Below, one piece after another: positions 5,161-58,200 of a DNA stretch of 64,000 bases. The first letter of the stretch is position 1. Every line of letters starts with the position of its first letter. Both the position numbers and the translations under genes were made by a program. A model generated the notes under the pieces. The model worked only from the letters and a program-made list of their open reading frames with translations. It had not been told where the DNA came from and searched no databases. Location of the stretch: positions 41,456-105,455 of the forward strand of contig CAYPCY010000001.1 of the NCBI GenBank assembly GCA_964409385.1, given 5' to 3'. This DNA comes from an uncultured Methanosarcinales archaeon (GTDB lineage Archaea > Nanobdellota > Nanobdellia > Woesearchaeales > CAYPCY01).

Positions 5161-5537
5161 TGTTAACTTTGCAATTCATTCCTTATTTTGAAATTGAACA
5201 ATTAGATTCTGAAGAAAGAATTAAAAAATTAATTAAATTGGTTAAACAAGAAAAAATAGTTTTGTTAGAAGGACGATTAGATCAAGAAGAAGAAACTGAT
5301 TTAATTAGAAGGACAATGGAAGAAATTTCTGGAAAATTTAAAGGCATAGAATTAAGTGTTATTTATCCTGATGGTGGAGATTCTGATTTTTTTAATAAAT
5401 TAAAACAGACAATATTAAATGTTATTCTTGGAAATAGACAAGGCATGACAATAATAGGTCCTGCATCTATAATTAAAGAAATAAAACAAGATCCTGATAA
5501 GATTCAATTATTTGCTATAGATAAGAGGCGAAAATAA
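5160..5537 (+). CDS. Conserved archaeal protein of unknown function (DUF2073-like), co-operonic with the GTPase
   Basis: 125 aa. Translationally coupled to both neighbours. The family assignment is from memory of conserved archaeal GTPase/DUF2073/Zn-ribbon neighbourhoods. Confidence 0.35.
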   Translation: MLTLQFIPYFEIEQLDSEERIKKLIKLVKQEKIVLLEGRLDQEEETDLIRRTMEEISGKFKGIELSVIYPDGGDSDFFNKLKQTILNVILGNRQGMTIIGPASIIKEIKQDPDKIQLFAIDKRRK

Positions 5538-5918
5538 ATGTCGCACCAATGTGTTAATTGTGGTAATTTATTTGATAATAAATCTGAGAAAATATTAACT
5601 GGTTGTGATTGTGGTGGAAAATTATTTTTTTTCATTAAAAATAATGCATCAATAAAAAAATCTTCTGAGGATCTAATTAAATTAACAACTAAAGATAAAA
5701 AACAAATTGAAAAAGATGTTTATGATTTAATTGGGAATGAATTAGATAAAGATAAACCAATAGTTCTTGATTTAGAAACTATTAAAATTCTTAAGCCTGG
5801 TAAGTATGAGTTAGATCTTGTTTCTTTATTAAAAAAGAAACCTTTAATATTTAAACTTCAAGAAGGAAAGTATGTTATAGATCTTACTGAAAGTTTTAAA
5901 GAAAAATATTTTAAATAA
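5538..5918 (+). CDS. Zn-ribbon protein (CxxC...CxC)
   Basis: N-terminal CVNCGNLF...GCDCGG. It follows the DUF2073-like gene directly. Confidence 0.5.
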   Translation: MSHQCVNCGNLFDNKSEKILTGCDCGGKLFFFIKNNASIKKSSEDLIKLTTKDKKQIEKDVYDLIGNELDKDKPIVLDLETIKILKPGKYELDLVSLLKKKPLIFKLQEGKYVIDLTESFKEKYFK

Positions 5919-8885: not shown

Positions 8886-8938
8886 AGCTTGTTTACTGTA
8901 TAATTAGTTTAATAACTTTTCGTTTTATAGTGTTTTTA

Positions 8939-8985
8939 GTGCGCTCGACCAAAGGGAGATACACATCCGTGGATACGGCGGAAAA
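8939..8985. other. Conserved GC-rich non-coding motif, copy 1: GTGCGCTCGACCAAAGGGAGATACACATCCGTGGATACGG. Possible small RNA or regulatory element.
   Basis: About 80% identical to a second copy at 28266-28313 (core GACCAAAGGGA.A.ACACAT.CG.TG.A.ACGG). Each core is followed by a short hairpin (CCGTggatACGG here, AACGGacgaagaCCGTT in copy 2). Both are GC-rich islands in AT-rich intergenic DNA. Confidence 0.5.
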
Positions 8986-8992
8986 TGTAGTG

Positions 8993-9064
8993 GACCCGGC
9001 CGGAGTCGAACCGGCGATCTTCGCCAAGTCAAGGCGACGTCATAGCCACTAGACCACGGGTCCT
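8993..9064 (-). tRNA. tRNA-Val (anticodon GAC), no encoded CCA
   Basis: Reverse complement GGACCCGTGGTCTAGTGGCTATGACGTCGCCTTGACTTGGCGAAGATCGCCGGTTCGACTCCGGCCGGGTCC folds as a cloverleaf: 7-bp acceptor, T-arm GCCGG/CCGGC with TTCGACT loop, anticodon stem TCGCC/GGCGA with loop TTGACTT. Position 37 is T, which is atypical. Confidence 0.7.
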
Positions 9065-10155
9065 TTAATATTAATTATTTGTTCCCACGAGAAGTTTTTA
9101 TTTCCGAAATGGCCATAAGTTGCTGTTTGCCTGAATATTGGTTGTTTCAGATTGAAGTATTTTATCATTTTTGCTGGTGTTAGTGGAAAGTTTTCTTTTA
9201 TTATTCTTATTAGTTCTTCTTCTGTTAATTCTGAAGTTCCAAAAGTATCTACAAATATACTTACTGGTTTTGAAACTCCTATTGCATAACTTAGTCCGAC
9301 TTCGCATTTCTTGCATAGGTTGTTTGCTACTAAGTTTTTTGCTATAAATCTTGTTGCGTAAGCTGCTGATCTGTCCACTTTTGATAAGTCTTTTCCTGAG
9401 AATGCTCCTCCTCCGTGTCTTCCCATTCCTCCATAAGTATCCACTATTATTTTTCTTCCTGTTAGTCCAGCATCTGCTTCTGGTCCTCCTTTAATGAAAC
9501 TTCCTGTTGGATTAATTAAAAATTTAGTATTCTCATCAAAGTATTCTTTACATACTGGTTTTATTACTTTCTCAATTATTTCTGTTTCTAATATTTTTTT
9601 ATTTACTTCTTCATGTTGGGTTGATACTACTATCGTATCTATTCTTTTTGGTTTAGTTCCTTCGTATTCTATTGTCACTTGTGATTTTCCATCTGGTTTT
9701 AAGAATGTTATTTCTTTATTCTTTCTTACTCTTGCTAATTGTTTTGTTAGTTTATGCGCTAAATCTATTGGTAGTGGCATTAATTCTTCTGTTTCGTCAC
9801 ATGCAAAGCCAAACATCATTCCTTGATCTCCCGCTCCTTGTTCTTTATCTTCTGTTTCTGTTACTCCTTGTGATATTTCTTGACTTTGTTTTGTTATATT
9901 AGTTAATACTTTTGGAGTGTATTCATACCCTATTTCTTTTAGAACTTGCCTTACTATCAGTTCTGGTTCTATAATTGCTTTTGTTGTTAATTCTCCTGCA
10001 ATTACTACTAAATCATTTTTTACTAGTGTTTCTATTGCTACTCTTGAATTTTCATCTTGTCTTAAGCATTCATCAAGAATTGCGTCTGAAATTTGATCGC
10101 ATACCTTGTCTGGATGGCCTTCTGTTACACTCTCACTAGTAAATAATCTTTTCAT
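9049..10155 (-). CDS. metK: S-adenosylmethionine synthetase, bacterial/eukaryotic-type MAT
   Basis: [33 protein letters not shown] and [10 protein letters not shown] signatures. The last 5 codons overlap the 5' end of the tRNA-Val gene. Confidence 0.9.
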
Positions 10156-10196
10156 GAGAATTTACAATTAGGAATTGTTTAAAAAACTAACTAAAA

Positions 10197-11465
10197 CTAT
10201 TTCTTTACTATTATTTCAATATTTATAACTTGTTTTATTTCTTTTGTTAAATTATTCTTTAATTTTTCTATATTAATTTTTTCTAATTCTAGAGTTAAAT
10301 TTTCAATATCATTTTTTGTCGAGTTAAGTTTATCTTTCTTTTGTTTAATGGATTTTTCTTGTTCCTCAACTTTTTTAATTATTGTCATTTTTTCTTGTTC
10401 TAGACTATGGATATTTATTTCGGTTGTCAATTTTTTATGTTTCCTTGTAAAATTTTTGAAGTAAGTTCTATCGAGTTTAGTTAGTTTTTGTAAGATTTTA
10501 TTTTTTTTCTTGTCTTTTAATTCTATTCTTCCATCTACAATAAGATTGTTCATCTTGGCAAGCAATTTAACTATTTTTAATTCTTTATCTAATAACAATA
10601 TTTGTAATGGATTTTTTAAATAACTTCTCACCAGTTTTTGTTCTAGTGTGATTCTTTCATATTTTTTTAATGCACGTACTATCACAGAAAAGTTTTGTAA
10701 GATTTCTTTTTCTAAGTTTTCTAATTCTTTAATTACTAGTTTTTTTTTATTAATTAGATTGATAAATTGTTTATGAGACTTTCCTTCTTCAAGATCTTTT
10801 AAGTTGGTCTCTTCATTCTTTATAATTTTGTTTTCCTCTTCATTCTTTTCTTTTGTTAGTTTTATTTTTTCTTTAAGTTCTTTTTTAAAGTTTATTTTCT
10901 GTTGTATTTTCTCTAGATTTTTTTTTAATTCATCTGCTTTTAATATTTTTGATTCTTCAATTGTTTCTTTTGCCTTTTTGATTAACTTAATGAGTTCTTT
11001 GATATTATCATCTACATTTCTTAATTCTAGTATGAAAAATTCATTTAATATTTGGTGGTTTCTTATTGTGTTTTTACCAAAATCATTTAATAATGTATCA
11101 AAAGAATTACAAAACTCTAACAATTTGTTAAAATTTTCAGATAAAACTATTGTTTCTAAGAACCTTTCAATTCTTTTTACATATATTTCTCGGTTACCTT
11201 TCATTATCTGCTTTGCTCTCTCAGGCGTGTTAGGATTTACTTCTGCTTTCAACAATTTTTGACTATTCTCGTATGCGTTATTTTTTTCTTTATCTATGAG
11301 CATTTTTATCTCTGCTAATTTCAGAGTTGTATTAGTAAACATTGTTTTTGACCAAGAATTGATGTACTCTTTTACTTCTAATAGTGTGAGTTCTTTCACT
11401 TCTTCATTCTTCTTAGAAAACTGTTTTAAAAAATTTAAAAATCTCATTTTTTTTGTTAATCTCAT
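10197..11465 (-). CDS. Lys/Glu-rich coiled-coil protein, function unknown
   Basis: Heptad-like K/E/L-rich composition across ~400 aa. Confidence 0.35.
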   Translation of the reverse strand: MRLTKKMRFLNFLKQFSKKNEEVKELTLLEVKEYINSWSKTMFTNTTLKLAEIKMLIDKEKNNAYENSQKLLKAEVNPNTPERAKQIMKGNREIYVKRIERFLETIVLSENFNKLLEFCNSFDTLLNDFGKNTIRNHQILNEFFILELRNVDDNIKELIKLIKKAKETIEESKILKADELKKNLEKIQQKINFKKELKEKIKLTKEKNEEENKIIKNEETNLKDLEEGKSHKQFINLINKKKLVIKELENLEKEILQNFSVIVRALKKYERITLEQKLVRSYLKNPLQILLLDKELKIVKLLAKMNNLIVDGRIELKDKKKNKILQKLTKLDRTYFKNFTRKHKKLTTEINIHSLEQEKMTIIKKVEEQEKSIKQKKDKLNSTKNDIENLTLELEKINIEKLKNNLTKEIKQVINIEIIVKK

Positions 11466-17794: not shown

Positions 17795-19153
17795 ATGAGT
17801 ATTAAAAATTTTATTGGAAATTCAGTTGATAAAATTAAAAACTATAGAAGTAGAACTAAGATTAAAATTGATAAACATTTAGAACCTGCTTTATTCTGGT
17901 TAGGAGCCAATGCAGGAATTCTATATGGTGGAGATAAAACTTTAGACTTTGTTTCTCAAAATATTGATTCTAACGAAGGACTTGCTATGCTTGGAACTTA
18001 TTCAGGGATCGGATTAGGTTTGGGATTAGCTAATAAGAAAGTTATTAATCCTCTTGCTAAAAAAATTAAAAAAATTCATAATTCAAGATTTAATTCTTGG
18101 AAGGAAGATAATGGTTGGAGTTGGGTAAAAACAGCTTCAGAATTTGGTGCTTTAGCAATCTTATATTCTACTTTAAATTTTAATTCTAGTATTGATAATT
18201 TTAAGAATGATGCTGATAGGATTGTTAATGCATTTTCTAGAAGCAATAAAACTATTGAGAGAATAATTAATGAACCTAACAGATTATTTAATTTTAGTGA
18301 TATAGATTGTGACATTCCTAGAACTTTAACTAAGGAGATTAAAGAAACTAACAAATGGAGTGATAAAGGAAGATTTTTAAGACAATTTAGATGGGATTGT
18401 ACTGTTTCTGAAATTGAAAAGAAATATAATATTCCAGATGGTTTATTAAGTGGTCTTGGTATGCAAGAGGGAGCGGGAGATCCTTTAAGTTTAAATTCTG
18501 GTAATGATGGTGGAGCAGGAAACTGGATGTTTCAACCAGGAACTGCTAAACAGTATGGTTTGAAGATTCATGGTACTTCTAAAAGGACTGGAAGGGATAG
18601 AAATCATGGCTGGAAGCTCTTAAAATTAGTTGAGAATAAGAATTGGAGTTATTCTACTCTTGCCAATATTGATGAAAGATTTAGTATTCCTAAGAGTGCC
18701 AATGCAGCAGGTCGTTATTTAAAGGATTTGCATAATAGATATGGTGATTGGGATAAAGTAATTTCTGCTTATAATCTTGGAAGACCTTGGAAGAATCCTG
18801 AAAGAACCACTCATGTTAAATGCACTAGAAAATATCAAAAGCAGTATCTTGAGAATAAGCTTGAAATGGGAAAACTAATTGATATTGATGTTTTAGAAAG
18901 TCTTAATGATCTAGGAGTTAATTTTGATTATATCCGAAAGAATTCTCAGGGAAAAGATGTCTTTAAATGGCATGTTGGCGCTGGAGAGAATCCTCAATCT
19001 ATTGCTAAACAGTTTAATGAGTGGGATATGAAAAAAGGGGATAAGTATAAAGAGCTTGATTCTACTTCGATTAAAAAGGCAGATGGTAGTTCTGTAGGTA
19101 ATTTAATATTTTCTAATAAACCTGTTTATGTTACTGCAAATGTTAAAGGTTAA
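17795..19153 (+). CDS. Lytic transglycosylase (SLT)-like domain protein (the track ORF starts at TTG 17780)
   Basis: LLSGLGMQEGAGDPLSLNSGNDGGAGNWMFQPGTAKQYGL resembles the SLT core QES.F.P.A.S..GA.GLMQ.MP.TA..YG. An N-terminal hydrophobic segment is present. Confidence 0.5.
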   Translation: MSIKNFIGNSVDKIKNYRSRTKIKIDKHLEPALFWLGANAGILYGGDKTLDFVSQNIDSNEGLAMLGTYSGIGLGLGLANKKVINPLAKKIKKIHNSRFNSWKEDNGWSWVKTASEFGALAILYSTLNFNSSIDNFKNDADRIVNAFSRSNKTIERIINEPNRLFNFSDIDCDIPRTLTKEIKETNKWSDKGRFLRQFRWDCTVSEIEKKYNIPDGLLSGLGMQEGAGDPLSLNSGNDGGAGNWMFQPGTAKQYGLKIHGTSKRTGRDRNHGWKLLKLVENKNWSYSTLANIDERFSIPKSANAAGRYLKDLHNRYGDWDKVISAYNLGRPWKNPERTTHVKCTRKYQKQYLENKLEMGKLIDIDVLESLNDLGVNFDYIRKNSQGKDVFKWHVGAGENPQSIAKQFNEWDMKKGDKYKELDSTSIKKADGSSVGNLIFSNKPVYVTANVKG

Positions 19154-26147: not shown

Positions 26148-26444
26148 ATGGAACTCGGTGGCAATATTCAACTGACTGGATTTGACGATTTAGAAACTGC
26201 AGAATTAATTGTAGTGAAAAAGATTGTTGGTAATTATTCCAGGAAATTTTCTGAAATGTGTGAACTGAAAGGATTACATGTTACTTTTAAACCAGTTCAT
26301 AAGACTAAAGGAAGTGAAAAATTTGAAATTCATGCTCAAGTTCAAGATTCTGGCAAGAATTATAACAGTAAATTAACTGATAGGAACTTATTTGTTGTTT
26401 TAGATTCTGTTCTTAAGAATGTTGAAAAACAGATTAAGAAGTAG
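26148..26444 (+). CDS. Ribosome hibernation factor-like protein (HPF/RaiA/YfiA family)
   Basis: 98 aa. NIQLTG, LHVTFK, FEIHAQVQ..GKNY and LFVVLDSVLKNVEKQIKK align to HPF blocks NITG, VYVVLKV, EIHASAEGQDMY and AIDGLIDKLARQLTKHK. Confidence 0.45.
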   Translation: MELGGNIQLTGFDDLETAELIVVKKIVGNYSRKFSEMCELKGLHVTFKPVHKTKGSEKFEIHAQVQDSGKNYNSKLTDRNLFVVLDSVLKNVEKQIKK

Positions 26445-26860: not shown

Positions 26861-27031
26861 TTACTTGTTTAGTTTGGTTCTTCTCCAACTTCTTTTTACT
26901 GTAGTGTGTCTTCCAGGATGTACTTTTCTTCCCATACCATAAATTTTTTGCACTGTCCAGAAAGGCGCCCATCTAGTCATTCTTCCTGCTTTGATAAGCC
27001 TTAACTTCCTGTTTTTATGGTTTATACTCAT
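26861..27031 (-). CDS. rpl39e: Ribosomal protein L39e (56 aa), absent from the ORF track
   Basis: Manual translation gives MSINHKNRKLRLIKAGRMTRWAPFWTVQKIYGMGRKVHPGRHTTVKRSWRRTKLNK, with the L39e hallmark R(H/S)WRRTKL. Its ATG overlaps the S19e stop (ATGA), and its stop abuts the L31e start. Confidence 0.75.
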   Translation of the reverse strand: MSINHKNRKLRLIKAGRMTRWAPFWTVQKIYGMGRKVHPGRHTTVKRSWRRTKLNK

Positions 27032-28175: not shown

Positions 28176-28265
28176 TAGAACAAAAAGAAAATTATACTAA
28201 TTAATAAAAGTAGTGCATTTTATAGAGTGAACTTTGCTTTTGGTGAAAACGTTTTGAAACATTAA

Positions 28266-28313
28266 TGTGCTTGACCAAAGGGAAACACATACGGTGTAAA
28301 CGGACGAAGACCG
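28266..28313. other. Conserved GC-rich non-coding motif, copy 2: GTGCTTGACCAAAGGGAAACACATACGGTGTAAACGGACGAAGACCGTT
   Basis: See copy 1 at 8939-8985. It lies directly after the stop of the 28315-29826 gene on the minus strand and upstream of the HAD gene. Confidence 0.5.
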
Positions 28314-28314
28314 T

Positions 28315-29826
28315 TTAGGGGAAGTTCCATACTGGTGGACTATTTTGAATCACTATTTCTACTGTTTGAATTTGTGAAGTGAATAATTCATTTTCTGCCC
28401 ACATTCTTACTTCAACAATATCTTCTTTTTCATAATTATTATTTTCTAGAGTTGTTGTTGTCTCTCCACTGGTTACTTCTATTAATTCTTCATTTAAGAA
28501 TTCTCCATTTACAAACCATTCGAAATGTATAACTCCTGTCAGGTTTCCTTCATCGACATAGGTTATACTTGCTGTTATGTCATCATTTGTTGTTGGTTCT
28601 TCAGGTTGTAGTGTTGCTTCAGTTAGTGTTATTGTTGATGGTTTATCTTGAACTTTTATTAGGATTGTTTTTTCTACTGTGTCTTTGCCGTCTGTCGCTA
28701 GTATTCTAACTTCATAATCTGCTGTGCATCCTTCTTCGTCACATCCTTGTGGATGTGCATCTTCTAGTGTTGTTTGTTTTGTTGATGATTCCATCCATCC
28801 TTCAAAGCTTATTATTATATCGTCTTGATCAGCATCTGTTGCTGTAACATCTATACTTACTAGGTCTCCTTCTATTACTTCAATCTCTTCAGGAGATTCT
28901 ATTACTGGTAGGTTGTTTAGTGCTTTTATTTCTAAATTTATTGTTTTAGTTACTTCTTCCACACCATCATTTGCTGTTATTTTTATTTCGTAAGTTCCTG
29001 CATCTCCAACTTCTGTCTGCCATTCTTCTTCTATTCCTTCTATTGTTATTGTTAGTTCGTCATCGTCCTTATCAGTAACTTCATAATTTAGTGGTATTAA
29101 ATCTCCTTCTGTAGCTTCAAAATCTTCTGCTTCTATTTCTGGAAGTCTATTAACATCCTTAATTAATAGTTTAATTTCATGGGTTGTTTTTTGGAAGTCG
29201 TCTTCTGCTTCTATCATTATAGTATATTCTGCAGTACATCCTTTTTCTTCACATCCTTGTGGGTATGCTTGATTATAGTTTATTTCTTGTTCTTTATTTT
29301 GTGTATATCCTTTTATTGTTGTTGTGAAACTATCATTTTCCTCATCTGTCACTTCATATTCTATATTTAGTGTTTCTCCTTCATTCAGTATTATTTCTGC
29401 TAATGCTTGTATTTCTGGAGCATTGTTTACTGTTAGTATTATTAATTGTATATTTTCTTCTATTGAGAATTCTCCGTCTGATGCTATGACTGTTACTGTG
29501 TAAGTTCCTGCATCTCCAACTTCTGTCTGCCAGGTTCCTTCTTCATCTAACGGTTCTGAAAATTGTAAGTTTAAAGAATCACCATCCGGGTCTGATACTA
29601 TTTCTTTTAGGTTGATTAAGTCTCCTTCTTCAAACTCTATGCTAAATGCTGTTTCTAGTTCTTCTTGTTGTTCTGGAGTTTCTTCAGTTTCAGGTTCTTC
29701 TGATTCTGTTGATACATTAAAATCTTGAGAAAAAACATCTTCTATTGTTGGTAGTAATACTGGTTCTGACTGTTCGCATGCTATTAAAAAAAGACTAAGT
29801 ATTGTTAGTATTATTAAAACCCTCAT
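28315..29826 (-). CDS. Secreted or lipoprotein-like acidic surface protein with repeated cadherin/Ig-like modules
   Basis: Signal plus Cys (LSLFLIAC). Repeated blocks EGDLI.L..EV(S/T)D.D.D.L....E....EEWQTEVGDAGTY..(K/T)ITA.DG, and (H/Y)PQGC(D/E)E(E/K)GCTA(D/E)Y. Confidence 0.5.
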   Translation of the reverse strand: MRVLIILTILSLFLIACEQSEPVLLPTIEDVFSQDFNVSTESEEPETEETPEQQEELETAFSIEFEEGDLINLKEIVSDPDGDSLNLQFSEPLDEEGTWQTEVGDAGTYTVTVIASDGEFSIEENIQLIILTVNNAPEIQALAEIILNEGETLNIEYEVTDEENDSFTTTIKGYTQNKEQEINYNQAYPQGCEEKGCTAEYTIMIEAEDDFQKTTHEIKLLIKDVNRLPEIEAEDFEATEGDLIPLNYEVTDKDDDELTITIEGIEEEWQTEVGDAGTYEIKITANDGVEEVTKTINLEIKALNNLPVIESPEEIEVIEGDLVSIDVTATDADQDDIIISFEGWMESSTKQTTLEDAHPQGCDEEGCTADYEVRILATDGKDTVEKTILIKVQDKPSTITLTEATLQPEEPTTNDDITASITYVDEGNLTGVIHFEWFVNGEFLNEELIEVTSGETTTTLENNNYEKEDIVEVRMWAENELFTSQIQTVEIVIQNSPPVWNFP

Positions 29827-49080: not shown

Positions 49081-49599
49081 ATGATAGCGTTAGCTTTGAA
49101 TAAAAAGGAAAAATTGCTAATAAGTTTCCTAAGACAAAATGCTAGGGAGACTTTAACTAATCTTAGCAAGAAAACTTCAATTCCAATAAGTACAATATAT
49201 GATAGTCTAAAAGAAAATAATTACATTACTAGAAATACTTGTTTATTAGATTTTGAAAAGTTAGGATTTCATACTCGTGTTAATATTTTCTTAAAATCAT
49301 CTGCGAAAAATAGAAAAGAGTTGGAAAACTACTTGGTAGGTCATCAAAATGTTAATTCTGTCTTTAGAATAAATAATAATTTTGACTTTTTGATAGAAGG
49401 AATTTTCAAGCAAGTAAAGGATGTTCAAGAAGTTATAGAATTACTTGAAAAAAACTTTGGAGATTTAAAAAAAGATATTTTTTACATTACTGAAGAGTTG
49501 AAGAAGGAAGAATTTCTCAGTAGTCCTGACCTGGTACAAACCCAAAAAACTTCCAAGATGACCGGAAATCCTCCGGCAAATTCTGGGTATGTCTTTTAA
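49081..49599 (+). CDS. Lrp/AsnC-family transcriptional regulator, paralogous to 23149-23598
   Basis: LISFLRQNARETLTNLSKKTSIPISTIYDSLK is an HTH. FRINNNFDFLIEGIFK resembles the 23149 protein's FKVNNQYDFLVECIFK. Confidence 0.6.
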   Translation: MIALALNKKEKLLISFLRQNARETLTNLSKKTSIPISTIYDSLKENNYITRNTCLLDFEKLGFHTRVNIFLKSSAKNRKELENYLVGHQNVNSVFRINNNFDFLIEGIFKQVKDVQEVIELLEKNFGDLKKDIFYITEELKKEEFLSSPDLVQTQKTSKMTGNPPANSGYVF

Positions 49600-52500
49600 A
49601 ATGAATAAACAAACTTTATTTATGGGGGAAGTAATAAATAAAACAAATATACTTTCGTTAAAAGTATTATCTTTCTTGCTCATATTCATCTTACTGCCTT
49701 TTGTTATTGCCTCTGAAACAACTTATGGTTCAGTCTATGAAATTGAAGAGATTGACAGAAAAGAATTATTTCAAGAAACAGTCAGAGAAAAACTTGAAAA
49801 ACAAGCATTAATCTATAAAGTAATTCCTACAGAAAAAGGAAATGAAATTTACAGAATTGATTCTGAAGGTAACATTATTGATGAAGATATTCCTCTTATT
49901 ATAAGTTCAATTAATTTATCTTCAAACTATTACGATGCAAAAATTTACGAGTCTCAAATTCAATCTCAAACTGTAAAACAAGGTAGTGGTGAAGGAGAAT
50001 CCTCCACTAGAGATATGGATTGTAATAATGCATATTATTTAGATTGGGAAGATGAAGGATCCGTCACCGGCTGGTATCCTCCAAACGAATACGAAAATCA
50101 TTGGTTTGAAATAGATCTTCCTAACGATGATGAATTTCTGATAGGTATTGACATGTCTAATAATGATGATTTTGATTTATATGTACATCCTGAATGTAAT
50201 GATGGATGGGTTTGCAGACCGTATGATGGAACAGGAGATACAGAAATTTGTTATGTCGATAATTTAGATGGAGATGTCTATATTAGAATTCATGCATATT
50301 ATTTAGGAGATGATGATCCTTATTATCTATATATTTATCCTCTTGAAGGAAATAATGATTATTGTGATATTTGGGATGATTGGGGAGTTCCTTGTGAAGA
50401 AGGAGAGTGGGATTGTGAAAGTGATTCTGATTGTGAGTCTGGTTTAGATTGTATGGGACCTTATGGAGATTACAATCCTAATTATTATGATGGATGTTGT
50501 GAACCTGGCGATGAATGGGACGCCAACAGTCATGAATGTATTTCAGGAGGTTGCGAAGAAGGTTGGTTAAACGAATATGATTGTGGTTCTGGCAACATGA
50601 GAAAAAGACTTTACCAAAATTCTGACTGTAGCACTGATTGGGAAAATTGGGAAGATTGTGACGATTATGATACAGGGTGGGATTACTTCTGTTCTGGAGA
50701 TTGTATACAAAGAGAAGAAACAGATTATTACTGTTCTGATTCTTCAAATTCTTGCCAAGGAAGTTATGACCAAGATACTCTTTCTTGTAACGGAGATTCT
50801 GATTACTGTGACGATAGGTATGATCATCAGGACGCTTGCGGAAAGTGTGGATATGAAGATTACGATTGTGATTGGAATAGTGAATGTTCAGGAAGTCTAG
50901 AATGTACAGGACCCATCTGGGGAGCACTAGATGGTTGTTGCAATCCAGGAGAACAATGGGACGGTAGCGGAAACTGCGGAGAATGCTTCGCAGACAGTGA
51001 CTGTGACGATCAAAATTATTATTCAGGTTGGAATTACGAATGTGGTAGTAATTATGTTAAAAAATATAGGACATTTTACGATTTTGGTTGTTCAGGAGGT
51101 AATGATTGTGTAGCTAATCAAATAAACGAGGAAGAAATTTATTATAATGGAAATTCTGATTATTGTTCTAAGAGTATAGAATTTGGTTGTGGAGGGTGCG
51201 ATTATGAACAATATGATTGTGATTGGAATAGTGAATGTTCAGGAAGCCTAGAATGTACAGGACCCATCTGGGGAGCACTAGATGGTTGTTGCAATCCAGG
51301 AGAACAATGGGACGGTAGCGGAAACTGCGGAGAATGCTTCGCAGACAGTGATTGTAACAGCCAAGATTACTATTCAGAATGGTATTACGAATGTGGTTAT
51401 GATTATGTCAAAAAGTATCGAATATTTTATGATTATTCTTGTTCAGGAGGTAATGATTGTATAGTTAATGAAATTGTTGAAGAAATAATATACAACAATG
51501 GAAATGAAGATTATTGTGATAAAAGTTTAGAGTATGGTTGTGGAGCTTGTGGATATGAACAATATGATTGTGATAGTAATAGTGAATGTTCAGGAAGCCT
51601 AGAATGTATGGGTTCAATCGGAGGCGCACTAGATGGTTGTTGCAATCCAAATGAAGAATGGGATGAAGTTAATTATGAGTGTATTTTCAACACTGTTTGT
51701 GGTGATGGAATTTGCAGTCCTGACGAGTATTGTGTTCAAGATTGTTTAGTTATTGACAGTTTTATTGACAATCCTGACTCTGTTGATTATGGAGAACCTG
51801 TTTCAGTAACTGTTAAGGTTGATAATATTGGAACTGTTACTTTATCTGAAAATATCGAAGCAGGAATTGTTCCTGAATCTTGGGCTGGTTTAATCTATCC
51901 TGATAGAAGTTCTACTCCTATTAGTGGTTGTTGTGACGCAAACGAATATTATGATTCTTTCCATCTGGAAATTAGTCCTGGACAGAGTGAATACGTTACT
52001 TTTAGTATTATAGCTCCTAATCCTGACTCTATTGATAATTGTGGTGATGGGGGTAGTGCTTGGGATTCTTCATTTAATTTAATTTCAGGATTGTATGTTG
52101 AGTGCTTTGAAGGATATACTGATTTTACAAGTACGGAGATTGATGTTTCTTATGAACCTCCTTGTAATAATAATGGTATTTGTGAAGAGTGGGAAAGTTT
52201 TGAAACTTGTTCTTCAGACTGTGTGTGTAATGGTAATGGAATTTGTGATGGTTTAGAAACTTTTGATACTTGCGCTAGTGAATGTTATTGTGATTTTGAT
52301 GGAACTTGCGACAGTTTTCAGGGAGAGAATGAGTATACTTGTGCCGCTGATTGTGTTCCTGATTGTGATATTCCTGACGGTAGTTCTTACGCTTGTGATT
52401 GTGATTCTAATATTGAATGTCCTTCGGGTTTGTTCTGTAATTTTGTTTCTGGTCCTGACGCTTGTGAGGAGATTAATTATGAGGATGAATGTTCTAACTA

Positions 52501-54739
52501 TAATGATTATTATTGTAATTCTGGAAATGTTTTCCAGTGTGTTTTTGAATCTACTAATTATGTTGAGGAACTAGTTGATGTTTGTACTAGTGGAGAGTTT
52601 TGTGATTCTCAAGTTGTTTCTGGCACTGGCGAGTGTAGTTTATTACCTGTTCATTTAGACTTGTGGATTGATTATGCACCTGTTGGTTTAACTGTTAATA
52701 AGCAAGTTGGTGATGTATTCACAGTTAATATTTATGCGGAACAGTCTACAACTGTTGATTTACAATATTCAGCAGTATTTTCTGGAGATTGTCCTCTAGG
52801 TAGTTATTCTTTAGACACTGGAGTTAATTCTTGCGAGTTAAGTGTTAATTCAGGATTTGGTAATTATATTATTAGTGTTAATGATAATGTAGTTACTTTG
52901 AATATTGTTTCAGAACCTTCATTGATTGTTGTTACTAATGTTGAGAAGTTGTTTGAAAGATTCCCTTATGAAGAAAGAGGGGTTGAAGCTACATTAAGTC
53001 AAACTTATGAGAATTCTGTTTCAAATTCGGTAGTTTATGATCTTAGCAAGTACATTTCTGGACATCCTTTCAATAGTTTTTCAAATTATAATGAGCATGT
53101 TGATAATCTTAACATGATGGATAATTCTTATACTGTTGAAGCTTCTGAATTCATTAAGGAAAAATGTAATGGTTGTTCTGATATTATGATTCTTGGTGAT
53201 GATTATGTTATTCCAGGATATAGAAGAATTATTGATGAGTACTTGACTGAATGGTTATGGTTTAACGGCGTTGCTGTAGAGTCTGTAATAACTACTGACA
53301 TTCCTTATATTGAAAAAGAAGTTTTATTGTTTTCTGAATATTTCGAAATTTTCAGGCAAGGATCTGGTTATCAGGGTAAGAATGTCTTAGTAATTCATCC
53401 TGCTAATGAAGATAGTTCCATGAGTGATAGTATTGAAGGTTTGAAGACTGCTTTTGTTGATCGTGGTTTTGATCCTGACTTCACAGATATTTCAGGAGAT
53501 ACTATTTATTGTGTTGATGAATCTTGGAGTAGTGATGCTTCTGGTAAGACTCTTATTCTTATTGGTTCTGAAGAGGATAATAATGCTTTTTCTTGCTTGC
53601 CTTTTATCCAGGCAGATTTAGATAATTATAGTGCTGCTCACTTACTTCCTAACGTTTGGGATACTGACGAATTTGCCTTAGTAATTAATACTGATGATCC
53701 TGCTGTTATTGAAAGTTTCGCATCTATGGTTAGAGAACAACAACTTGAGAATTTAGGTAGTGAGACTGCTTACTTCTTTAATATGGGAACTCAATATGTT
53801 GGTTATGGAGCTTTGGTTCTTGGTGCTGGGTTGATAATTGCTGGTACTGGTGGTGCTGCAGCTCCTGCAGGTTTGATTTTAATTGGGGGTATTGCTAATG
53901 TTGCTGCAGATTCAACTGATGTTGCTAATACTTGTTATGTTAATTATGATAGTATGGGCTGGTGTGGAGGCACTATTGCCTTAGCAGCAATTCCGGTCCT
54001 CCCTAGCAAGCCTGTTAAAGCTTTTATCAGGCAAATTAAGGATTTCAATTTTAATCAAATTGTTAATTTGCAATTAGTAGATGATGTAATGAAGAAATCC
54101 ATTAAATATTTTCAACCTGACGATCTTAAGAATGTAATTAAAAATGAGGAAACTCTTGAATTATTTTCTGACGGTAAACATTTCTTGATAGGGGGGGATG
54201 ATATTACTTCTATTAAAGTTGCTGAATTTAATAATATTAAAAAAGAACATTTAGCCGAAGGTTTTGTTAACTTGAAAAGGTTAGATTTAGATAATGCTTA
54301 TTTAGATCCTGATTGGTTAACCCAATTAAGAATGCAAGGAGGAAATCCTGGCTTTTGGGCTGAATTAAAACATGCTTCTGATCAGATAGATAATTTTGAT
54401 AAAGTTATTGTTGGGAAAAGACATGTAGGACTTAATATTGACATGGATGTATTATTGAAAAAAGAAGGCGTTCAAGAAGCTATTCTTGATGAAGTTAAGA
54501 ATTATAATAGTCTTCTAGAAATAGAAGAATTTAATTTAGGAGATGATTTATACAAACAATTAACTGCAAGAATTGGTTCTATAGGAACTACTGTTGAAGT
54601 TGCAGGAGATACTCTTACAATAACAAATGTCAGACTTATTGTTAGAGAAAATACACCTATAGGTCCAAATTTACAAACATTTTTAGATGAGAATCCTTCA
54701 ATGGAATTAATTAGATTTAGAGGAGTTGATTGGCCATGA
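49589..54739 (+). CDS. Giant secreted Cys-rich protein (1716 aa) with tandem ~117-aa Cys-rich modules, a Gly/Ala-rich hydrophobic segment and an unknown C-terminal domain
   Basis: Signal peptide LSFLLIFILLPFVIASE. Repeated modules CG.CGYE.YDCDWNSECSGSLECTGPIWGALDGCCNPGEQWDGSGNCGECFADSDC. More than 150 Cys in total. Confidence 0.6.
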   Translation: MSFKMNKQTLFMGEVINKTNILSLKVLSFLLIFILLPFVIASETTYGSVYEIEEIDRKELFQETVREKLEKQALIYKVIPTEKGNEIYRIDSEGNIIDEDIPLIISSINLSSNYYDAKIYESQIQSQTVKQGSGEGESSTRDMDCNNAYYLDWEDEGSVTGWYPPNEYENHWFEIDLPNDDEFLIGIDMSNNDDFDLYVHPECNDGWVCRPYDGTGDTEICYVDNLDGDVYIRIHAYYLGDDDPYYLYIYPLEGNNDYCDIWDDWGVPCEEGEWDCESDSDCESGLDCMGPYGDYNPNYYDGCCEPGDEWDANSHECISGGCEEGWLNEYDCGSGNMRKRLYQNSDCSTDWENWEDCDDYDTGWDYFCSGDCIQREETDYYCSDSSNSCQGSYDQDTLSCNGDSDYCDDRYDHQDACGKCGYEDYDCDWNSECSGSLECTGPIWGALDGCCNPGEQWDGSGNCGECFADSDCDDQNYYSGWNYECGSNYVKKYRTFYDFGCSGGNDCVANQINEEEIYYNGNSDYCSKSIEFGCGGCDYEQYDCDWNSECSGSLECTGPIWGALDGCCNPGEQWDGSGNCGECFADSDCNSQDYYSEWYYECGYDYVKKYRIFYDYSCSGGNDCIVNEIVEEIIYNNGNEDYCDKSLEYGCGACGYEQYDCDSNSECSGSLECMGSIGGALDGCCNPNEEWDEVNYECIFNTVCGDGICSPDEYCVQDCLVIDSFIDNPDSVDYGEPVSVTVKVDNIGTVTLSENIEAGIVPESWAGLIYPDRSSTPISGCCDANEYYDSFHLEISPGQSEYVTFSIIAPNPDSIDNCGDGGSAWDSSFNLISGLYVECFEGYTDFTSTEIDVSYEPPCNNNGICEEWESFETCSSDCVCNGNGICDGLETFDTCASECYCDFDGTCDSFQGENEYTCAADCVPDCDIPDGSSYACDCDSNIECPSGLFCNFVSGPDACEEINYEDECSNYNDYYCNSGNVFQCVFESTNYVEELVDVCTSGEFCDSQVVSGTGECSLLPVHLDLWIDYAPVGLTVNKQVGDVFTVNIYAEQSTTVDLQYSAVFSGDCPLGSYSLDTGVNSCELSVNSGFGNYIISVNDNVVTLNIVSEPSLIVVTNVEKLFERFPYEERGVEATLSQTYENSVSNSVVYDLSKYISGHPFNSFSNYNEHVDNLNMMDNSYTVEASEFIKEKCNGCSDIMILGDDYVIPGYRRIIDEYLTEWLWFNGVAVESVITTDIPYIEKEVLLFSEYFEIFRQGSGYQGKNVLVIHPANEDSSMSDSIEGLKTAFVDRGFDPDFTDISGDTIYCVDESWSSDASGKTLILIGSEEDNNAFSCLPFIQADLDNYSAAHLLPNVWDTDEFALVINTDDPAVIESFASMVREQQLENLGSETAYFFNMGTQYVGYGALVLGAGLIIAGTGGAAAPAGLILIGGIANVAADSTDVANTCYVNYDSMGWCGGTIALAAIPVLPSKPVKAFIRQIKDFNFNQIVNLQLVDDVMKKSIKYFQPDDLKNVIKNEETLELFSDGKHFLIGGDDITSIKVAEFNNIKKEHLAEGFVNLKRLDLDNAYLDPDWLTQLRMQGGNPGFWAELKHASDQIDNFDKVIVGKRHVGLNIDMDVLLKKEGVQEAILDEVKNYNSLLEIEEFNLGDDLYKQLTARIGSIGTTVEVAGDTLTITNVRLIVRENTPIGPNLQTFLDENPSMELIRFRGVDWP
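50837..51700 (+). repeat. 351-bp coding tandem repeat (2 near-identical copies plus a partial third) inside the giant protein gene
   Basis: Copies start at 50837, 51188 and 51539. The spurious ORFs 50931-51113 and 51282-51464 are displaced by exactly 351 nt and are near-identical. Confidence 0.8.
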
Positions 54740-55299
54740 GTAATTATAATAAATTTATTTTTAAGATTGAAAAAGAAGAAGATATTGAATTAATTAATAG
54801 TATAATAAATAAATACTGTTCTGAAAAAAATACTACTGAAGAATCTTTCAAACAATTAATTATTGGTGAAATGATTATTGATGTTTATTATACTGTAGAA
54901 AAAGATAGTTCTAAAACTAAATATGTTAGTTTTTCGGTTAATCAAATCAGGTTTAGTACTGAATCATTTTATAATTTAATTAAAGAGATAGGATCGGCAA
55001 TTTCAATGTCTGGAACGGGATATAACGAATACGAACCAGAAAAGGATCCTGAAGTTTTAGAAGAGGGTAAAAAAGGAATTTTTAAGAGATCTTATGATGT
55101 TGAAGATTTTTGGCCTTGGTCTCTTTTTTCTAAAGAATTAGTTGAAAAATACGGTAAAGATAAATTGTTTAGTGCTCCTGTTGAATTTGTTGAAGAATTT
55201 AATAATGGTTCTGTATTTTTAATGATTAATAAAAATTCAATGGGAACTAATAACTTCGAACAAAGAAAAAAATTAAGGGAATACTTAAGAAATGAATAA
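54730..55299 (+). CDS. Hypothetical 189-aa cytoplasmic protein overlapping both giant genes (possible accessory, immunity or chaperone)
   Basis: Its start overlaps the 49589 gene stop by 10 nt, and its stop overlaps the 55292 gene start by 8 nt. Confidence 0.35.
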   Translation: MAMSNYNKFIFKIEKEEDIELINSIINKYCSEKNTTEESFKQLIIGEMIIDVYYTVEKDSSKTKYVSFSVNQIRFSTESFYNLIKEIGSAISMSGTGYNEYEPEKDPEVLEEGKKGIFKRSYDVEDFWPWSLFSKELVEKYGKDKLFSAPVEFVEEFNNGSVFLMINKNSMGTNNFEQRKKLREYLRNE

Positions 55300-58200
55300 A
55301 CAATTAATTTTAGGAATTTATATTTTACTTTTGTTTTCACAAGCTTTAGCTGTGGAGTTTGTTAGTGAGAAAAATTCTGTTTCTAGAATTGTTGGTGAAT
55401 CACCTACTGAATTAATTACTCAATTGAAGAGAACTTCTCTTAATATTGATGAAGCTACTTATTACAGTTACGAAACAAGTCTTATTAACAAGAAAGATAA
55501 TATTCTTAATGAACAATTTGGTGGTGTTGATACTAATCTTCCTAATTATTATAATTTTTACGAAATTCAGGATTCTGTAGATTCTCTTTCAAATAATGAA
55601 TTGTTTATTCTTGAAGCATTTGGTGGAGATTCTTTTCAAGAGGTTAAATCTGCAAGTTTTTTAGGGGATGAATTATCAGTCCAGGATATTACTGATTGGC
55701 AATCTTCTTTTGAAATGAATACTCCCTTATTTATTTTTGATGCTCCTAATGCAGGAGTTTACATGCCTAAGGATGATACTTTCGTTTCTAGACTAGTTAG
55801 GGATTCTACAATAATCGCTCCTTCGTATTATAACTCTCCAGAATTTACCAAGTCAGTACTTTGTAATTTACAGTCTGGAAAGACTATTGGTGAGACTTTC
55901 AAGGATGCTAGAAACTTCCATTTTAATGGCGGTTCCTCTAATAATTATATTGGATTGGTTTTACAGTCTTATAATTTATATGGTAATCCTAGACAGGTTA
56001 TTTCCATGCCTTCCTTTGACATTGCTGATTACTGCCAGAATAATCTTGAAAATTTAGCGAATGGTATTGAATATTTGGGGGAGGTTGGTAATTATTCTTT
56101 GTTTAGAAAACATTTAACTTACACTATTGATGATTTTGAAATTGTTAATAATACTATTGAAATTCCAGGTCTTAATCAAAGGCTTTCTTTTGGAGAACCA
56201 ATAGTTCCTGTTTCTATAAGAACTACTTATTTTCCTAAAGATACTATTTTCATGAATTTTAGTGTTAATGAAATCAGTAATCCAGAAAGTTTTAATCTTA
56301 ACTTTTCTTCTTACGAGTTTGACTTTGTTGATAGGCATTGTTATCAAGAAGAGTTCGGAGAGGAAATCATTCTTTCGGAAGGTTATGGTAAGACTCATAA
56401 TTTGATTGCTAAAATACTTCCAGTTAGGATTGATAATTGTTCTTCTGGAGATATTACTTTATTTAAACAATTTAATTACAGTGTTGATTACATCACATTA
56501 AGTCCTGTGATGATTAAGGAAGTTAGTGTTCCTTCAAAAGTTTATTCTAATGAAATTGTTAATGTTGATGTTGAAATTTTGAATTTGAAAGATTCTGTTA
56601 GTTTTGGTTCTTTGGCTGTTTACAAGGGTTCTGAACTTATTACTGAGAATGAAATTAACTCTTCAATTTATAATCATACATTAAGTTTTTATGCGCCTGA
56701 AGAGGGAATTCATAAGTATAGTGTAGAATTTATTTTTGAGAATGAAACTGCTCATTATAAAGAGTTTATTCTTGAGTCTGTAATTTTAGAAGTTGATGCT
56801 TCCATTCCAGTTTCTATAAATGAAGAAACCACTATTAATCTAGAATTATACTCTCCCTTAACTTTTGATACTGTTATGGAGTATTACTTGTTAAAAGATG
56901 AAGAGATTCTTGATTCTGGAGTTTTAGAGTTTGAAGTTTCTGGATTAATAAATCAAGAAATTTCTTTTACTGGACTTTCAAGGGAAGACCAGAATTATTT
57001 GCTGAGAATTAATAATTATTACTTAGGGAATCAGAAAACTAATACTTTCTTATTAACAATTAATAATCTTCCTTTACTTAATGTTGATTATGATACTGTT
57101 TTTGAAAATGAATCTTTCATTATTAGTTTTGAAGCTACTGATTTGGATAATGATCCTTTAACAATTTCAATAGATGATGAGAATTTCATTCAAGAAAATA
57201 ATAGTTTTGTTTGGGATACTGAATTTACTGATTCTGGAGATTATACTGTTGAACTTACTGTTTTTGATGGTTTATTAACAAATTCTTTGCTTATTCCATT
57301 TTCTATTGAAAATTGGTTATTGCCAATGAGTATTTCTGGCGGTTTAGTTTATAGTAATGGAGAAATAATTAATAATTCAATTTTGGATGTTTATATTAAT
57401 AATATTTTATTTAGTAGTTTTGAAGTTGATACTAGTTATTCAATTAATATTCCTGCAGACAATTTTGATAATTATGGTTTTTTTGAAGATGATATTATTA
57501 GTTTCAAACTTGATAATTATGACGTTGTGGAAACTTTAAGTTTCATTCCTGAAGAAGAAATTAGTTTGGACTTGACTGTTTTACTTCCTAATACTGCTCC
57601 TGTCTTTGATGAAATTTCTGATCAATTAATTAATGAAGGTTATGCTTTAACTATTGAACTTAATGTTTCAGATCCTGATGGTGATGACTTAACTTATTTA
57701 CTTGAAGGTCCTGGAATTTTATTCAATAATACTTATGTTTGGGAGACTTTATTTGAAGATTCTGGAATTTATGATGTTTCAATAATAGTTTCAGATTTTG
57801 AATATTCAATCACTAGAACATTCTCTATTGAAGTTTTGAATATTAATAGACTTCCTGTAATTGAAGAAATTCTTAATCAAATTATTCATGAGAATGAAAC
57901 TTTAATTATTGAACTTAATGTTTCAGATCCGGACAGTGATGAATTAACAATTTCATTGGATGGGGTTGGAGAGATAATTGATGAAACTTTTGTTTTCTCT
58001 CCTGAATATGGTAGTTCAGGAATTTATGATGTTTCAATAATAGTTTCAGATTTTGAATCTTCAGTTACTGAAAATTTCTCTATTGAAGTTTTGAATATTA
58101 ATTTACCTCCAGTTGTAGAGTTTGAATTTGATGATGAATTAGTTAATGAGGTAGACTCTATCAGCATAATAGTTAATGCTGTTGATCCTGATAATAATGA

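What the first reader, a model, noticed from the sequence alone, without database searches (positions are those of the whole stretch)
8939..8985. Conserved GC-rich ~45-nt intergenic motif (copy 1 of 2), possibly a small RNA or cis-regulatory element
GTGCGCTCGACCAAAGGGAGATACACATCCGTGGATACGG is ~80% identical to 28266-28313 (core GACCAAAGGGA.A.ACACAT.CG.TG.A.ACGG), and each core is followed by a short hairpin. Both copies sit in AT-rich intergenic DNA immediately downstream (minus strand) of a gene (tRNA-Val here, a surface-protein gene in copy 2) and upstream of the next minus-strand gene. In a ~30% GC genome, two such GC-rich look-alikes are unlikely by chance. I could not fit them to tRNA, C/D or H/ACA boxes. 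Candidates are an unannotated sRNA family, a split-gene RNA fragment, or a shared operator or terminator.
Basis: seen in the sequence. Interest (0 to 1): 0.5.

Follow-up and report, generated by a model that had tools for sequence, protein, structure and literature searches.

The report
Small mobile hairpin repeat in archaeon
The two GC-rich look-alikes are real copies of a roughly 60-base hairpin-forming repeat that has been inserted, duplicated or lost at different places (mostly beside tRNA genes) in a tiny DPANN archaeon and a close relative. It belongs to no described family and its role is unproven.

Summary
Copy 1 (8926-8987) and copy 2 (28255-28316) are more alike than composition-matched chance allows (36 bits against 21.6±2.0).

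The host is an AT-rich (29% GC) Woesearchaeota-like DPANN archaeon. Rfam matches only the tRNA.

Three comparisons show a discrete, movable unit of about 58-62 nt:
- At the tRNA-Val site, two relatives lack exactly 62 nt.
- At the orthologous copy-2 site, a relative carries two tandem units.
- A third copy lies 2.9 kb beyond the window, in front of an intron-containing tRNA-Asn. It sits between perfect 11-nt duplicates of that tRNA's 5' end.

The conserved core is itself a 26-nt imperfect hairpin. Four of its nine pairs show compensatory changes, and its internal-loop and bulge bases never vary. All five copies point the same way as the neighbouring genes.

The element is not coding. It is not a C/D-box RNA, a K-turn, a CRISPR repeat, an attC site or an integrase scar. 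Its variable position relative to promoters argues against an operator or terminator.

Best reading (about 0.5): a lineage-specific, non-autonomous dispersed hairpin repeat, like REP or MITE elements but atypical. Main rival (about 0.3): a small RNA or RNA hairpin processed from tRNA or mRNA precursors. Genome-wide copy number and expression could not be tested.

The parts
8926..8987 (-). Copy 1: a 62-nt block immediately 3' of tRNA-Val that two relatives lack
   Evidence: Global alignment with L033 and L034 gives one 62-column gap, with the tRNA and the downstream promoter/ORF aligned on both sides (sequences).
8939..8964 (-).
   Evidence: RNAalifold and pair counts: 9 pairs, and copy 1 keeps 8 of them.
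8967..8978 (-). Copy 1 small hairpin CCGU-AUCC-ACGG (sense reading)
   Evidence: Read from the sequence; predicted in the fold of the tRNA-Val precursor region.
8988..8992 (-). CACTA, the last bases of tRNA-Val plus trailer: left direct repeat bracketing copy 1 (further CACTA copies at 8937-8941 and 8928-8932)
   Evidence: Read from the sequence. The relatives' empty site reads GGGTCCACTAAAACG.
8990..9063 (-). tRNA-Val(GAC), the gene copy 1 is attached to
   Evidence: ARAGORN; Rfam tRNA model, 61 bits.
28255..28316 (-). Copy 2: a unit of about 61-62 nt that starts inside the stop codon of the 503-aa Ig-like surface-protein gene. It is bracketed by AAACG at 28312-28316 and 28250-28254.
   Evidence: Sequences; the orthologous unit r1 in L032 is 32/34 identical over the core.
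28265..28290 (-). Copy 2 main hairpin (H2)
28298..28316 (-). Copy 2 hairpin H1 (AAACGG..CCGUUU), overlapping the TAA stop codon
   Evidence: The relative has AAACGA..UCGUUU, which is compensatory.
28200..28254 (-). Spacer that occupies the place of the relative's second tandem unit; possibly a decayed second copy (weak)
   Evidence: Alignment with L032: 50% identity here against 92-95% over copy 2. It begins with AAACG and ends with ..GCACTA, like a unit. No HMM or CM hit.

Best explanation
The motif is a member of a lineage-specific family of short (about 58-62 nt), non-coding, non-autonomous dispersed repeats in a Woesearchaeota-like DPANN archaeon.

Anatomy. Each unit has four parts:
- a 5' hairpin (AAAC..GUUU);
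- a variable linker;
- a short A/T-rich tail.

Shown:
- The unit is gained or lost as a block. It is a 62-nt presence/absence difference at tRNA-Val, and there are one versus two tandem units at the surface-protein locus.
- One copy sits between perfect 11-nt duplicates of the 5' end of tRNA-Asn.
- The hairpin is kept by compensatory changes, while its internal-loop and bulge bases never vary.
- All copies lie on the same strand as the local genes.

Inferred:
- New copies arise by insertion at staggered breaks (or by template switching) in non-coding margins of transcription units, especially tRNA gene ends. Only events whose target duplication rebuilds the tRNA survive.
- The invariant loop and bulge of the hairpin are the recognition site of an unidentified trans-acting protein that mobilises the element.
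- The element is mainly selfish or neutral. Any effect on the host (for example a structured RNA end) is secondary.
For: - Real similarity: 36.4 bits against a null of 21.6 +/- 2.0.
- Empty site: two relatives have tRNA-Val followed directly by the same conserved promoter and 70-aa ORF, and lack exactly 62 nt.
- Copy-number change: the orthologous intergenic site in the relative holds two tandem units with a period of about 61 nt, at L032 5497-5544 and 5559-5603.
- Third copy: L042 15171-15228, same organism (99.99% identical over 8.25 kb of overlap). It lies between two perfect copies of GCCTCCGTAGC, the first 11 nt of an intron-containing tRNA-Asn. The TATA-like box sits upstream of the outer, partial copy (and 77 repeat family D7).
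- Hairpin: 9 pairs, 97.8% of cells paired, 4 pairs with compensatory double changes, and 0 of 500 shuffles reach the covariation score. Slid controls give 20-42% paired.
- Invariant unpaired bases in all five copies.
- All five copies are in sense orientation.
- Position relative to promoters varies, which fits insertion rather than regulation.
- RAYT-type (REP-associated) tyrosine transposases are the only transposase KO reported with strict hits in 256 Nanobdellota proteomes (preprint 10.64898/2026.05.13.725050). An enzyme class that recognises hairpins therefore exists in the phylum.
Against: - Only 3 loci were found in about 72 kb of the source organism and 1 locus in about 43 kb of the closest relative. 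None was found in about 55 kb of more distant relatives.
- No transposase, integrase or reverse transcriptase was found in the window or its extension.
- There are no terminal inverted repeats.
- The flanking duplications differ in length (5 nt and imperfect at tRNA-Val, 11 nt at tRNA-Asn), which fits no classical transposase and does not fit RAYT/IS200-type insertion.
- Copies at different loci are only 65-75% identical, so no source copy for the apparently recent tRNA-Asn event has been seen.
- The 62-nt difference at tRNA-Val could be a deletion in the relatives between CACTA repeats.
- Conservation between the two organisms (92-95%) is only modestly above the coding background of 80-90%.
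- Sense orientation and location in probably highly expressed transcripts fit an RNA function equally well.
Confidence: 0.5

Rival explanations
1. A family of small structured RNAs, or of protein-binding RNA hairpins, with no promoter of their own. They would be transcribed as part of tRNA or mRNA precursors and released by RNase Z (copy 1), RNase P (the tRNA-Asn copy) or 3'-end processing (copy 2). In this view the gene copies are evolutionarily mobile, as archaeal C/D-box sRNA genes are.
For: - All five copies are in sense orientation inside transcription units: the tRNA-Val trailer, the tRNA-Asn leader and a surface-protein 3' end.
- The hairpin shows compensatory changes and has invariant loop and bulge bases.
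- There is a precedent. [quoted passage not shown]
Against: - No Rfam family matches.
- There are no C/D or H/ACA boxes on either strand.
- No single-stranded segment is conserved that could act as a guide or seed. The linker and tail differ between copies.
- The hairpins are weak, at -4.5 to -7 kcal/mol, and whole-unit folding z-scores run from +0.15 to -1.2.
- The element is dispensable at tRNA-Val in two relatives.
- No expression data are available.
Confidence: 0.3
2. A double-stranded DNA binding site (operator or upstream activating site) for a transcription factor that co-regulates the downstream genes.
For: Copies 1 and 2 lie upstream of the promoters of the next genes, and the core is an imperfect inverted repeat.
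Against: - The distance to the TATA-like boxes is inconsistent: 8 nt and about 50-60 nt in the window, about 5 nt in the relative.
- The third copy is downstream of its promoter, about 40 nt into the transcript.
- The element is absent from the otherwise almost identical promoter region of the 70-aa ORF in two relatives.
- Compensatory changes next to the loop (CC/GG to CU/AG) are what a folded single strand predicts, not what a dimeric DNA-binding protein predicts.
- The downstream genes are unrelated.
Confidence: 0.05
3. Scars of site-specific integration (att-site remnants) of viruses or plasmids at tRNA genes, with the repeat being a leftover arm of the integrated elements.
For: - Two of the three loci are at tRNA genes.
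- Partial tRNA copies flank the tRNA-Asn insert.
- In the same region, perfect partial copies flank both ends of tRNA-Thr (D7, D8, D14).
Against: - No integrase lies between or next to the repeats, and the genes between copies 1 and 2 are housekeeping genes.
- The inserts are only 49-70 nt.
- Copy 2 is not at a tRNA.
- Covariation in the hairpin indicates selection on the unit itself.
Confidence: 0.07
4. An intrinsic transcription terminator or 3'-end stabilising hairpin module.
For: Copies 1 and 2 and the relative's copies start within 0-5 nt of the end of the upstream gene. Short T runs are present.
Against: - The third copy lies between a promoter and its tRNA in sense orientation, where a terminator would be harmful.
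- No consistent oligo-T tract follows the hairpin.
- Relatives manage without it at tRNA-Val.
Confidence: 0.05

Closest known systems
REP / REPIN sequences mobilised by RAYT (Y1 tyrosine) transposases, and the related IS200/IS605 palindrome-associated elements
   Same: - A short imperfect palindrome in extragenic DNA, often right after stop codons.
- It occurs singly or in tandem.
- The hairpin is kept by compensatory changes and has conserved unpaired bases.
- All copies lie on one strand.
- RAYT-type genes are reported in the same phylum.
   Different: - No RAYT or Y1 gene occurs in the roughly 72 kb of source-organism DNA available.
- There is no conserved GTAG-like 5' tetranucleotide.
- At least one copy has an 11-nt flanking duplication, which these peel-and-paste elements do not make.
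- The unit has two different hairpins.
- Copy number looks low.
MITEs (miniature inverted-repeat transposable elements)
   Same: - Non-coding and non-autonomous.
- Intergenic.
- Presence/absence differences between close relatives.
- Flanking direct duplication.
   Different: - No terminal inverted repeats.
- The duplication length is not fixed (5 against 11 nt).
- At about 60 nt it is smaller than most MITEs.
- No parent IS is seen.
Dicistronic tRNA-sRNA genes and 'mobile' C/D-box sRNA genes of Nanoarchaeum equitans (PMC3491384)
   Same: A small G+C-rich element with no promoter of its own, lying directly 3' of a tRNA-Val gene in a related nano-sized archaeon. Such genes are scattered at ORF ends and vary between genomes.
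   Different: There are no C, D, C' or D' boxes on either strand and no guide-like conserved single strand. Expression is unknown.
K-turn / K-loop (L7Ae-binding) motifs
   Same: On the window + strand the invariant bases form tandem G.A/A.G pairs next to a short G-C stem.
   Different: - There is no 3-nt bulge beside the G.A pairs.
- The two 'loop' pairs covary, so the helix is continuous.
- On the strand that is sense to all neighbouring genes, the same positions are U.C/C.U.

Membership tests
REP/REPIN (RAYT-associated) | Short (about 20-40 nt) imperfect palindrome located in extragenic DNA | tested here: met
   26-nt hairpin with 9 pairs, in all five copies, all intergenic.
REP/REPIN (RAYT-associated) | Tens to hundreds of copies per genome | not testable with these tools
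   Only about 72 kb of the genome could be read, holding 3 loci. The public scans did not contain this organism.
REP/REPIN (RAYT-associated) | A RAYT (Y1 transposase) gene in the genome, typically flanked by REPs | tested here: inconclusive
   No Y1_Tnp or other transposase domain in the window or L042 ORFs. The rest of the genome was not seen.
REP/REPIN and IS200/IS605-derived elements | Insertion without target-site duplication, 3' of a fixed tetra- or pentanucleotide | tested here: not met
   The tRNA-Asn copy lies between perfect 11-nt duplicates. The left flanks differ between copies.
MITE | Terminal inverted repeats | tested here: not met
   The ends of the units (AAAC.. and ..TATTAA / ..GTTTCA) are not inverted copies of each other (sequences).
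MITE | Target-site duplication of fixed length | tested here: not met
   CACTA (5 nt, imperfect context) at tRNA-Val against 11 nt at tRNA-Asn.
C/D-box sRNA | C box RUGAUGA and D box CUGA (plus C'/D') at the RNA ends | tested here: not met
   Neither strand of any copy has them (read). No Rfam snoRNA-type hit even at E<=10.
K-turn (L7Ae site) | Tandem sheared G.A pairs | tested here: met
   GA...GA is invariant in all five copies on the window + strand (reverse complement).
K-turn (L7Ae site) | 3-nt bulge between the canonical stem and the G.A pairs | tested here: not met
   The pairs flank the G.A pairs directly on both sides. The only bulge is a single base, two pairs away.
CRISPR array / solitary repeat | Regularly spaced near-identical repeats with unique spacers of 25-50 nt, and cas genes | tested here: not met
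   At most two units, 30/34 identical, with a spacer of about 23 nt. No cas domain in any ORF scanned.
Integron attC site | R''(RYYYAAC) ... R'(GTTRRRY) boxes pairing across the whole site | tested here: not met
   The boxes are absent. AAAC pairs with a GUUU only 7-11 nt away, not with the far end.
Integrase att scar at a tRNA gene | Integrase gene or element genes between or next to the direct repeats | tested here: not met
   Housekeeping genes lie between copies 1 and 2. No recombinase domain near any copy.
Archaeal BHB intron in tRNA | Bulge-helix-bulge motif at both junctions | tested here: inconclusive
   No BHB is apparent in folds of the tRNA-Asn precursor. The junctions are direct repeats, not complementary. 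No dedicated BHB search was run.
Any Rfam 15 family | Covariance-model score at or above the gathering threshold | tested here: not met
   Only tRNA reaches threshold. Hits over the elements at E<=10 are noise.

The most novel reading that the evidence does not exclude
The element, together with the other small inserts flanked by perfect partial tRNA copies at tRNA-Thr, reflects an undescribed copy-and-paste process in DPANN archaea. In this process tiny hairpin units are inserted into the ends of tRNA genes with variable-length target duplications that regenerate the tRNA. This is SINE-like behaviour (A/T-rich tail, possible 5' truncation of copy 1), possibly through an RNA or single-strand intermediate.
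Probability: 0.12. Interest if true: 0.8.

Novelty: new variant of a known kind. Interest (0 to 1): 0.45.

Why it matters
DPANN archaea have very small, streamlined genomes and are thought to carry few mobile elements. A self-propagating 60-nt hairpin unit would be a marker of ongoing genome plasticity in such a genome. This would hold especially if it targets tRNA gene ends and leaves duplications of tRNA termini. It would also be a cheap strain-typing marker, and a lead to an unknown hairpin-recognising enzyme.

If the element is instead a processed small RNA, it would extend the tRNA-linked sRNA arrangement known from Nanoarchaeum to mesophilic marine relatives, with a new RNA type.

In either case the practical lesson is that these intergenic G+C islands are not tRNA halves or known guide RNAs.

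Tried and rejected
- **Rfam.** Run at gathering threshold on the window and at E<=10 on both loci and on the L042 tRNA region. Only tRNAs were found.
- **Collection-wide DNA scans.**
  - Genome contigs and metagenome contigs returned only chance hits in unrelated, mostly G+C-rich contigs. They did not even return the source organism, so neither collection contains it.
  - In hindsight the patterns were built on the loop, which turned out to be the variable part.
  - Three viral-contig scans gave chance hits or nothing.
  - Phage and plasmid BLAST gave only chance nuoG matches.
- **Synteny through MetK homologues**. MetK is next to tRNA-Val only in this organism, so these loci served only as about 55 kb of negative search space.
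- **Wasted look-ups.** One went on an ORF whose called start differs, and one on contigs too short to reach the tRNA.
- **Coding hypothesis.** An ATG-initiated peptide and a 'PYVFPFGQAH*' frame were considered and rejected. The frames are not shared between copy 1 and copy 2, and copy 1 follows a tRNA.
- **Integrated element between the two copies.** Rejected, because the genes there are ribosomal proteins, eIF2-gamma, Elp3, RsmB and the like.
- **Strand choice by folding energy.** No difference was found.
- **Weak CM hit downstream of the L31e gene** (window 26403-26436 and its orthologue). It is an unrelated hairpin inside an overlapping ORF.
- **Literature searches.** No description of such an element was found.

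Full report
**Observation.** The two stretches are present as described. A pattern search finds the core only at 8947-8966 and 28273-28292. Uniform scoring does not separate the pair from the many AT-rich chance matches in this 29%-GC window (score 13). I therefore scored with a composition-aware matrix. The best match of copy 1 anywhere in the window is copy 2, at 36.4 bits. 300 shuffled versions of the query gave 21.6 +/- 2.0 bits (maximum 28.0). The similarity is real. HMM and covariance-model searches find no further copy inside the window.

**Host and setting.** The window encodes S19e, S6e, L31e, L10e, eIF2-gamma, archease, Elp3, Cbf5-like TruB, RNA cyclase, a bacterial-type MetK and DnaK/DnaJ. 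The closest MetK homologues are named Woesearchaeota or 'archaeon'. It is therefore an AT-rich DPANN archaeon. All neighbours of both copies are on the minus strand.
- Copy 1 locus: MetK > tRNA-Val(GAC) > copy 1 > 70-aa ORF > DUF2391 protein > archease.
- Copy 2 locus: DnaJ > 503-aa Ig-like surface protein > copy 2 > 222-aa HAD/NT5C-like protein > S19e.

No transposase, integrase or cas gene occurs in the window. The 19 kb between the copies is housekeeping DNA.

**Known RNA families.** Rfam 15 gives only the tRNA at gathering threshold. At E<=10 it gives nothing meaningful over either copy. Neither strand has C/D or H/ACA boxes. Whole-unit folds are unremarkable, with z-scores from +0.15 to -1.2.

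**Relatives, locus 2.** The 222-aa protein has one non-identical homologue in 5.8 billion clusters (73% identity). Its contig (L032) is syntenic. In the orthologous intergenic space it carries two tandem units, r1 (5497-5544) and r2 (5559-5603), about 61 nt apart. Copy 2 and r1 agree at 32/34 core positions. Nucleotide identity between the two genomes is 0.80-0.90 in the flanking genes and 0.92-0.95 over the unit. It falls to about 0.5 in the spacer that replaces r2 in the window. The unit is thus the best-kept part of the spacer, but only modestly above the coding background. Copy number differs between the genomes.

**Relatives, locus 1.** Homologues of the DUF2391 protein (82-83% identity) led to three contigs from two further organisms. 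In these, tRNA-Val is followed directly by the same promoter region and the 70-aa ORF. Global alignment shows one clean 62-nt gap in the relatives. It lies between GGGTCCAC(TA) and (TA)AAACGAAAAGTTATTAAAC, and the flanks are otherwise nearly identical. In the window the block is bracketed by CACTA repeats. The gap length equals the unit length at locus 2. Parsimony cannot decide between insertion in this lineage and deletion in the others.

**A third copy.** The last contig look-up returned L042, which is 99.99% identical to the window over 8.25 kb and runs 8 kb past its right end. The HMM finds a copy at L042 15173-15199 (E = 4.7e-5). Model R1 scores that site at 49 bits, but it was one of the five training copies. 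The sequence reads:

TATA-like box ... T GCCTCCGTAGC [AAACCTTTTCAGGTTTGATCGGGAATGTATGTTTCCCTACGGTCAAGCATACTATTAA] GCCTCCGTAGC TTAGCGG...

The second GCCTCCGTAGC is the 5' end of a tRNA-Asn(GTT) gene with a 42-nt intron (and 77 repeat family D7). A 58-nt unit therefore sits between perfect 11-nt duplicates of the tRNA's first bases, downstream of the tRNA promoter and in sense orientation. This is the clearest sign of an insertion with target duplication.

**Anatomy.**
- Units c2, r1, r2 and c3 begin with AAAC and form a first hairpin: AAACGG/CCGUUU, AAACGA/UCGUUU, AAAC/GUUU and AAACC/GGUUU. These differ by compensatory changes.
- Copy 1 lacks this start and may be 5'-truncated.
- On the five-copy alignment its nine pairs are 97.8% paired. 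Four pairs show compensatory double changes (A-U/G-C, G-C/A-U, U-A/C-G, C-G/U-A). None of 500 shuffles reaches the covariation score, and slid controls give 20-42% pairing.
- The unpaired internal-loop bases are invariant (UC/UC on the sense strand, GA/GA on the other), as is a bulged G.
- Folding energies are modest (-4.5 to -7 kcal/mol) and equal on both strands. Copy 1 has one wobble and one mismatch on either strand. The strand cannot be decided from structure alone.
- All five copies are co-oriented with their neighbouring genes.

**What it is not.**
- Not coding: the frames are not shared and copy 1 follows a tRNA.
- Not an operator or activator site: the distance to TATA-like boxes is 8 nt, about 50-60 nt and about 5 nt in different copies. 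One copy lies inside a transcript, and the element is absent from an otherwise conserved promoter region.
- Not a terminator: one copy lies between a promoter and its tRNA.
- Not an integrase scar, CRISPR repeat, attC site, C/D-box RNA or canonical K-turn (see the membership table).

**Best explanation and rival.** The block-wise gain or loss, the tandem copy-number change, the perfect target duplication at tRNA-Asn, the covarying hairpin with invariant unpaired bases, and the lack of any fixed relation to promoters fit best with a short non-autonomous dispersed repeat. It is akin to REP or MITE elements. Its hairpin would be the handle for an unidentified mobilising protein (confidence about 0.5).

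Several features count against a classical member of either family:
- There are no terminal inverted repeats.
- The duplication length is variable.
- No transposase lies in reach.
- Density is low.
- The copies have diverged to 65-75% identity.

A preprint reports RAYT-type transposases as the only transposase KO with strict hits in 256 Nanobdellota proteomes. This makes a hairpin-recognising enzyme plausible in the phylum but proves nothing here.

The main rival (about 0.3) is an RNA-level role. Every copy is sense and embedded in a tRNA or mRNA precursor. In Nanoarchaeum equitans an sRNA directly follows tRNA-Val and is released by RNase Z (PMC3491384). The two readings are not exclusive, because mobile small-RNA genes are known.

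**Limits.**
Those collections do not contain this organism anyway.
- Only about 72 kb of the source genome and about 43 kb of its closest relative could be read.
- No expression data exist in the tools.
- Genome-wide copy number, the mobilising enzyme and transcription therefore remain open.

**Novelty and interest.** The element matches no described family. It behaves like a known kind (small dispersed palindromic repeats) with unusual traits. The neighbouring tRNA-Thr carries perfect partial copies of both its ends around unrelated small inserts (D8 and D14). This hints at a more general and possibly new insertion process at tRNA gene ends in this lineage. I rate that reading at about 0.12 but as clearly interesting if true.

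Noticed in passing
L042 17918-18143 (same organism; equals window coordinates of about 69665-69890, beyond the right end): tRNA-Thr(TGT) (17981-18053) is bracketed by perfect partial copies of its own ends. GCCTCTGTAGCATA (14 nt) starts 63 nt upstream of the gene's own copy, and CAACTCCCATCAGAGGCTT (19 nt) starts 89 nt downstream of the gene's own copy. The 49-nt and 70-nt fillers contain hairpins. They have no other copy in the DNA at hand. The tail of the 49-nt filler (TAAAAACACT) equals the tail of copy 1.
   Followed up: partly
L042 15283-15341 and 17726-17784: A 59-nt module (AAAATGTG..TTTTGAACTTCTGTATTCTTYGAATACA, with a 7-bp palindrome), 80% identical between the two places. It lies right after the stop codons of two unrelated genes, upstream of the tRNA-Asn/Ile cluster and of tRNA-Thr. 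It is a second small intergenic repeat family.
   Followed up: partly
L042 14890-14977 and 15058-15170 (minus strand): Intron-containing tRNA-Ile(GAT) (15-nt intron) and tRNA-Asn(GTT) (42-nt intron) were missed by ARAGORN in bacterial mode but found by the Rfam tRNA model. Just downstream of tRNA-Ile lies CACTCGATTCTACCAGACT, a reverse complement of parts of that tRNA.
   Followed up: partly
window 9049-9063: The MetK ORF runs 15 nt into tRNA-Val and ends ..IINIKGPVV*. In a relative (L034) a different ORF upstream of tRNA-Val ends with the same peptide. The overlap is therefore read-through of the ORF into the tRNA gene and its conserved upstream bases, not a real protein feature.
   Followed up: partly
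window 9049-11465 compared with L033 2271-3337: Compared with the closest relative, the window has two extra genes (a 422-aa ORF with no Pfam hit, and MetK) inserted between the rhodanese/SelU-like gene and tRNA-Val. In the relative, MetK lies elsewhere (L007). tRNA-Val is thus a rearrangement point on both of its sides.
   Followed up: no
window 26950-26989: Another G+C-rich island in an apparent intergenic gap between the S19e and L31e genes. Gene calls on identical contigs place a 56-aa ORF there (possibly an L39e-like ribosomal protein). It is unrelated to the motif.
   Followed up: no
window 49589-59734: Two giant ORFs (1716 and 1480 aa; the latter has Cadherin-like and Big_9 hints on record) have long internal DNA repeats. 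Examples are 50852-51312 against 51203-51663 at 85%, and 57598-57847 against 57853-58102. These are probably repetitive surface proteins.
   Followed up: no
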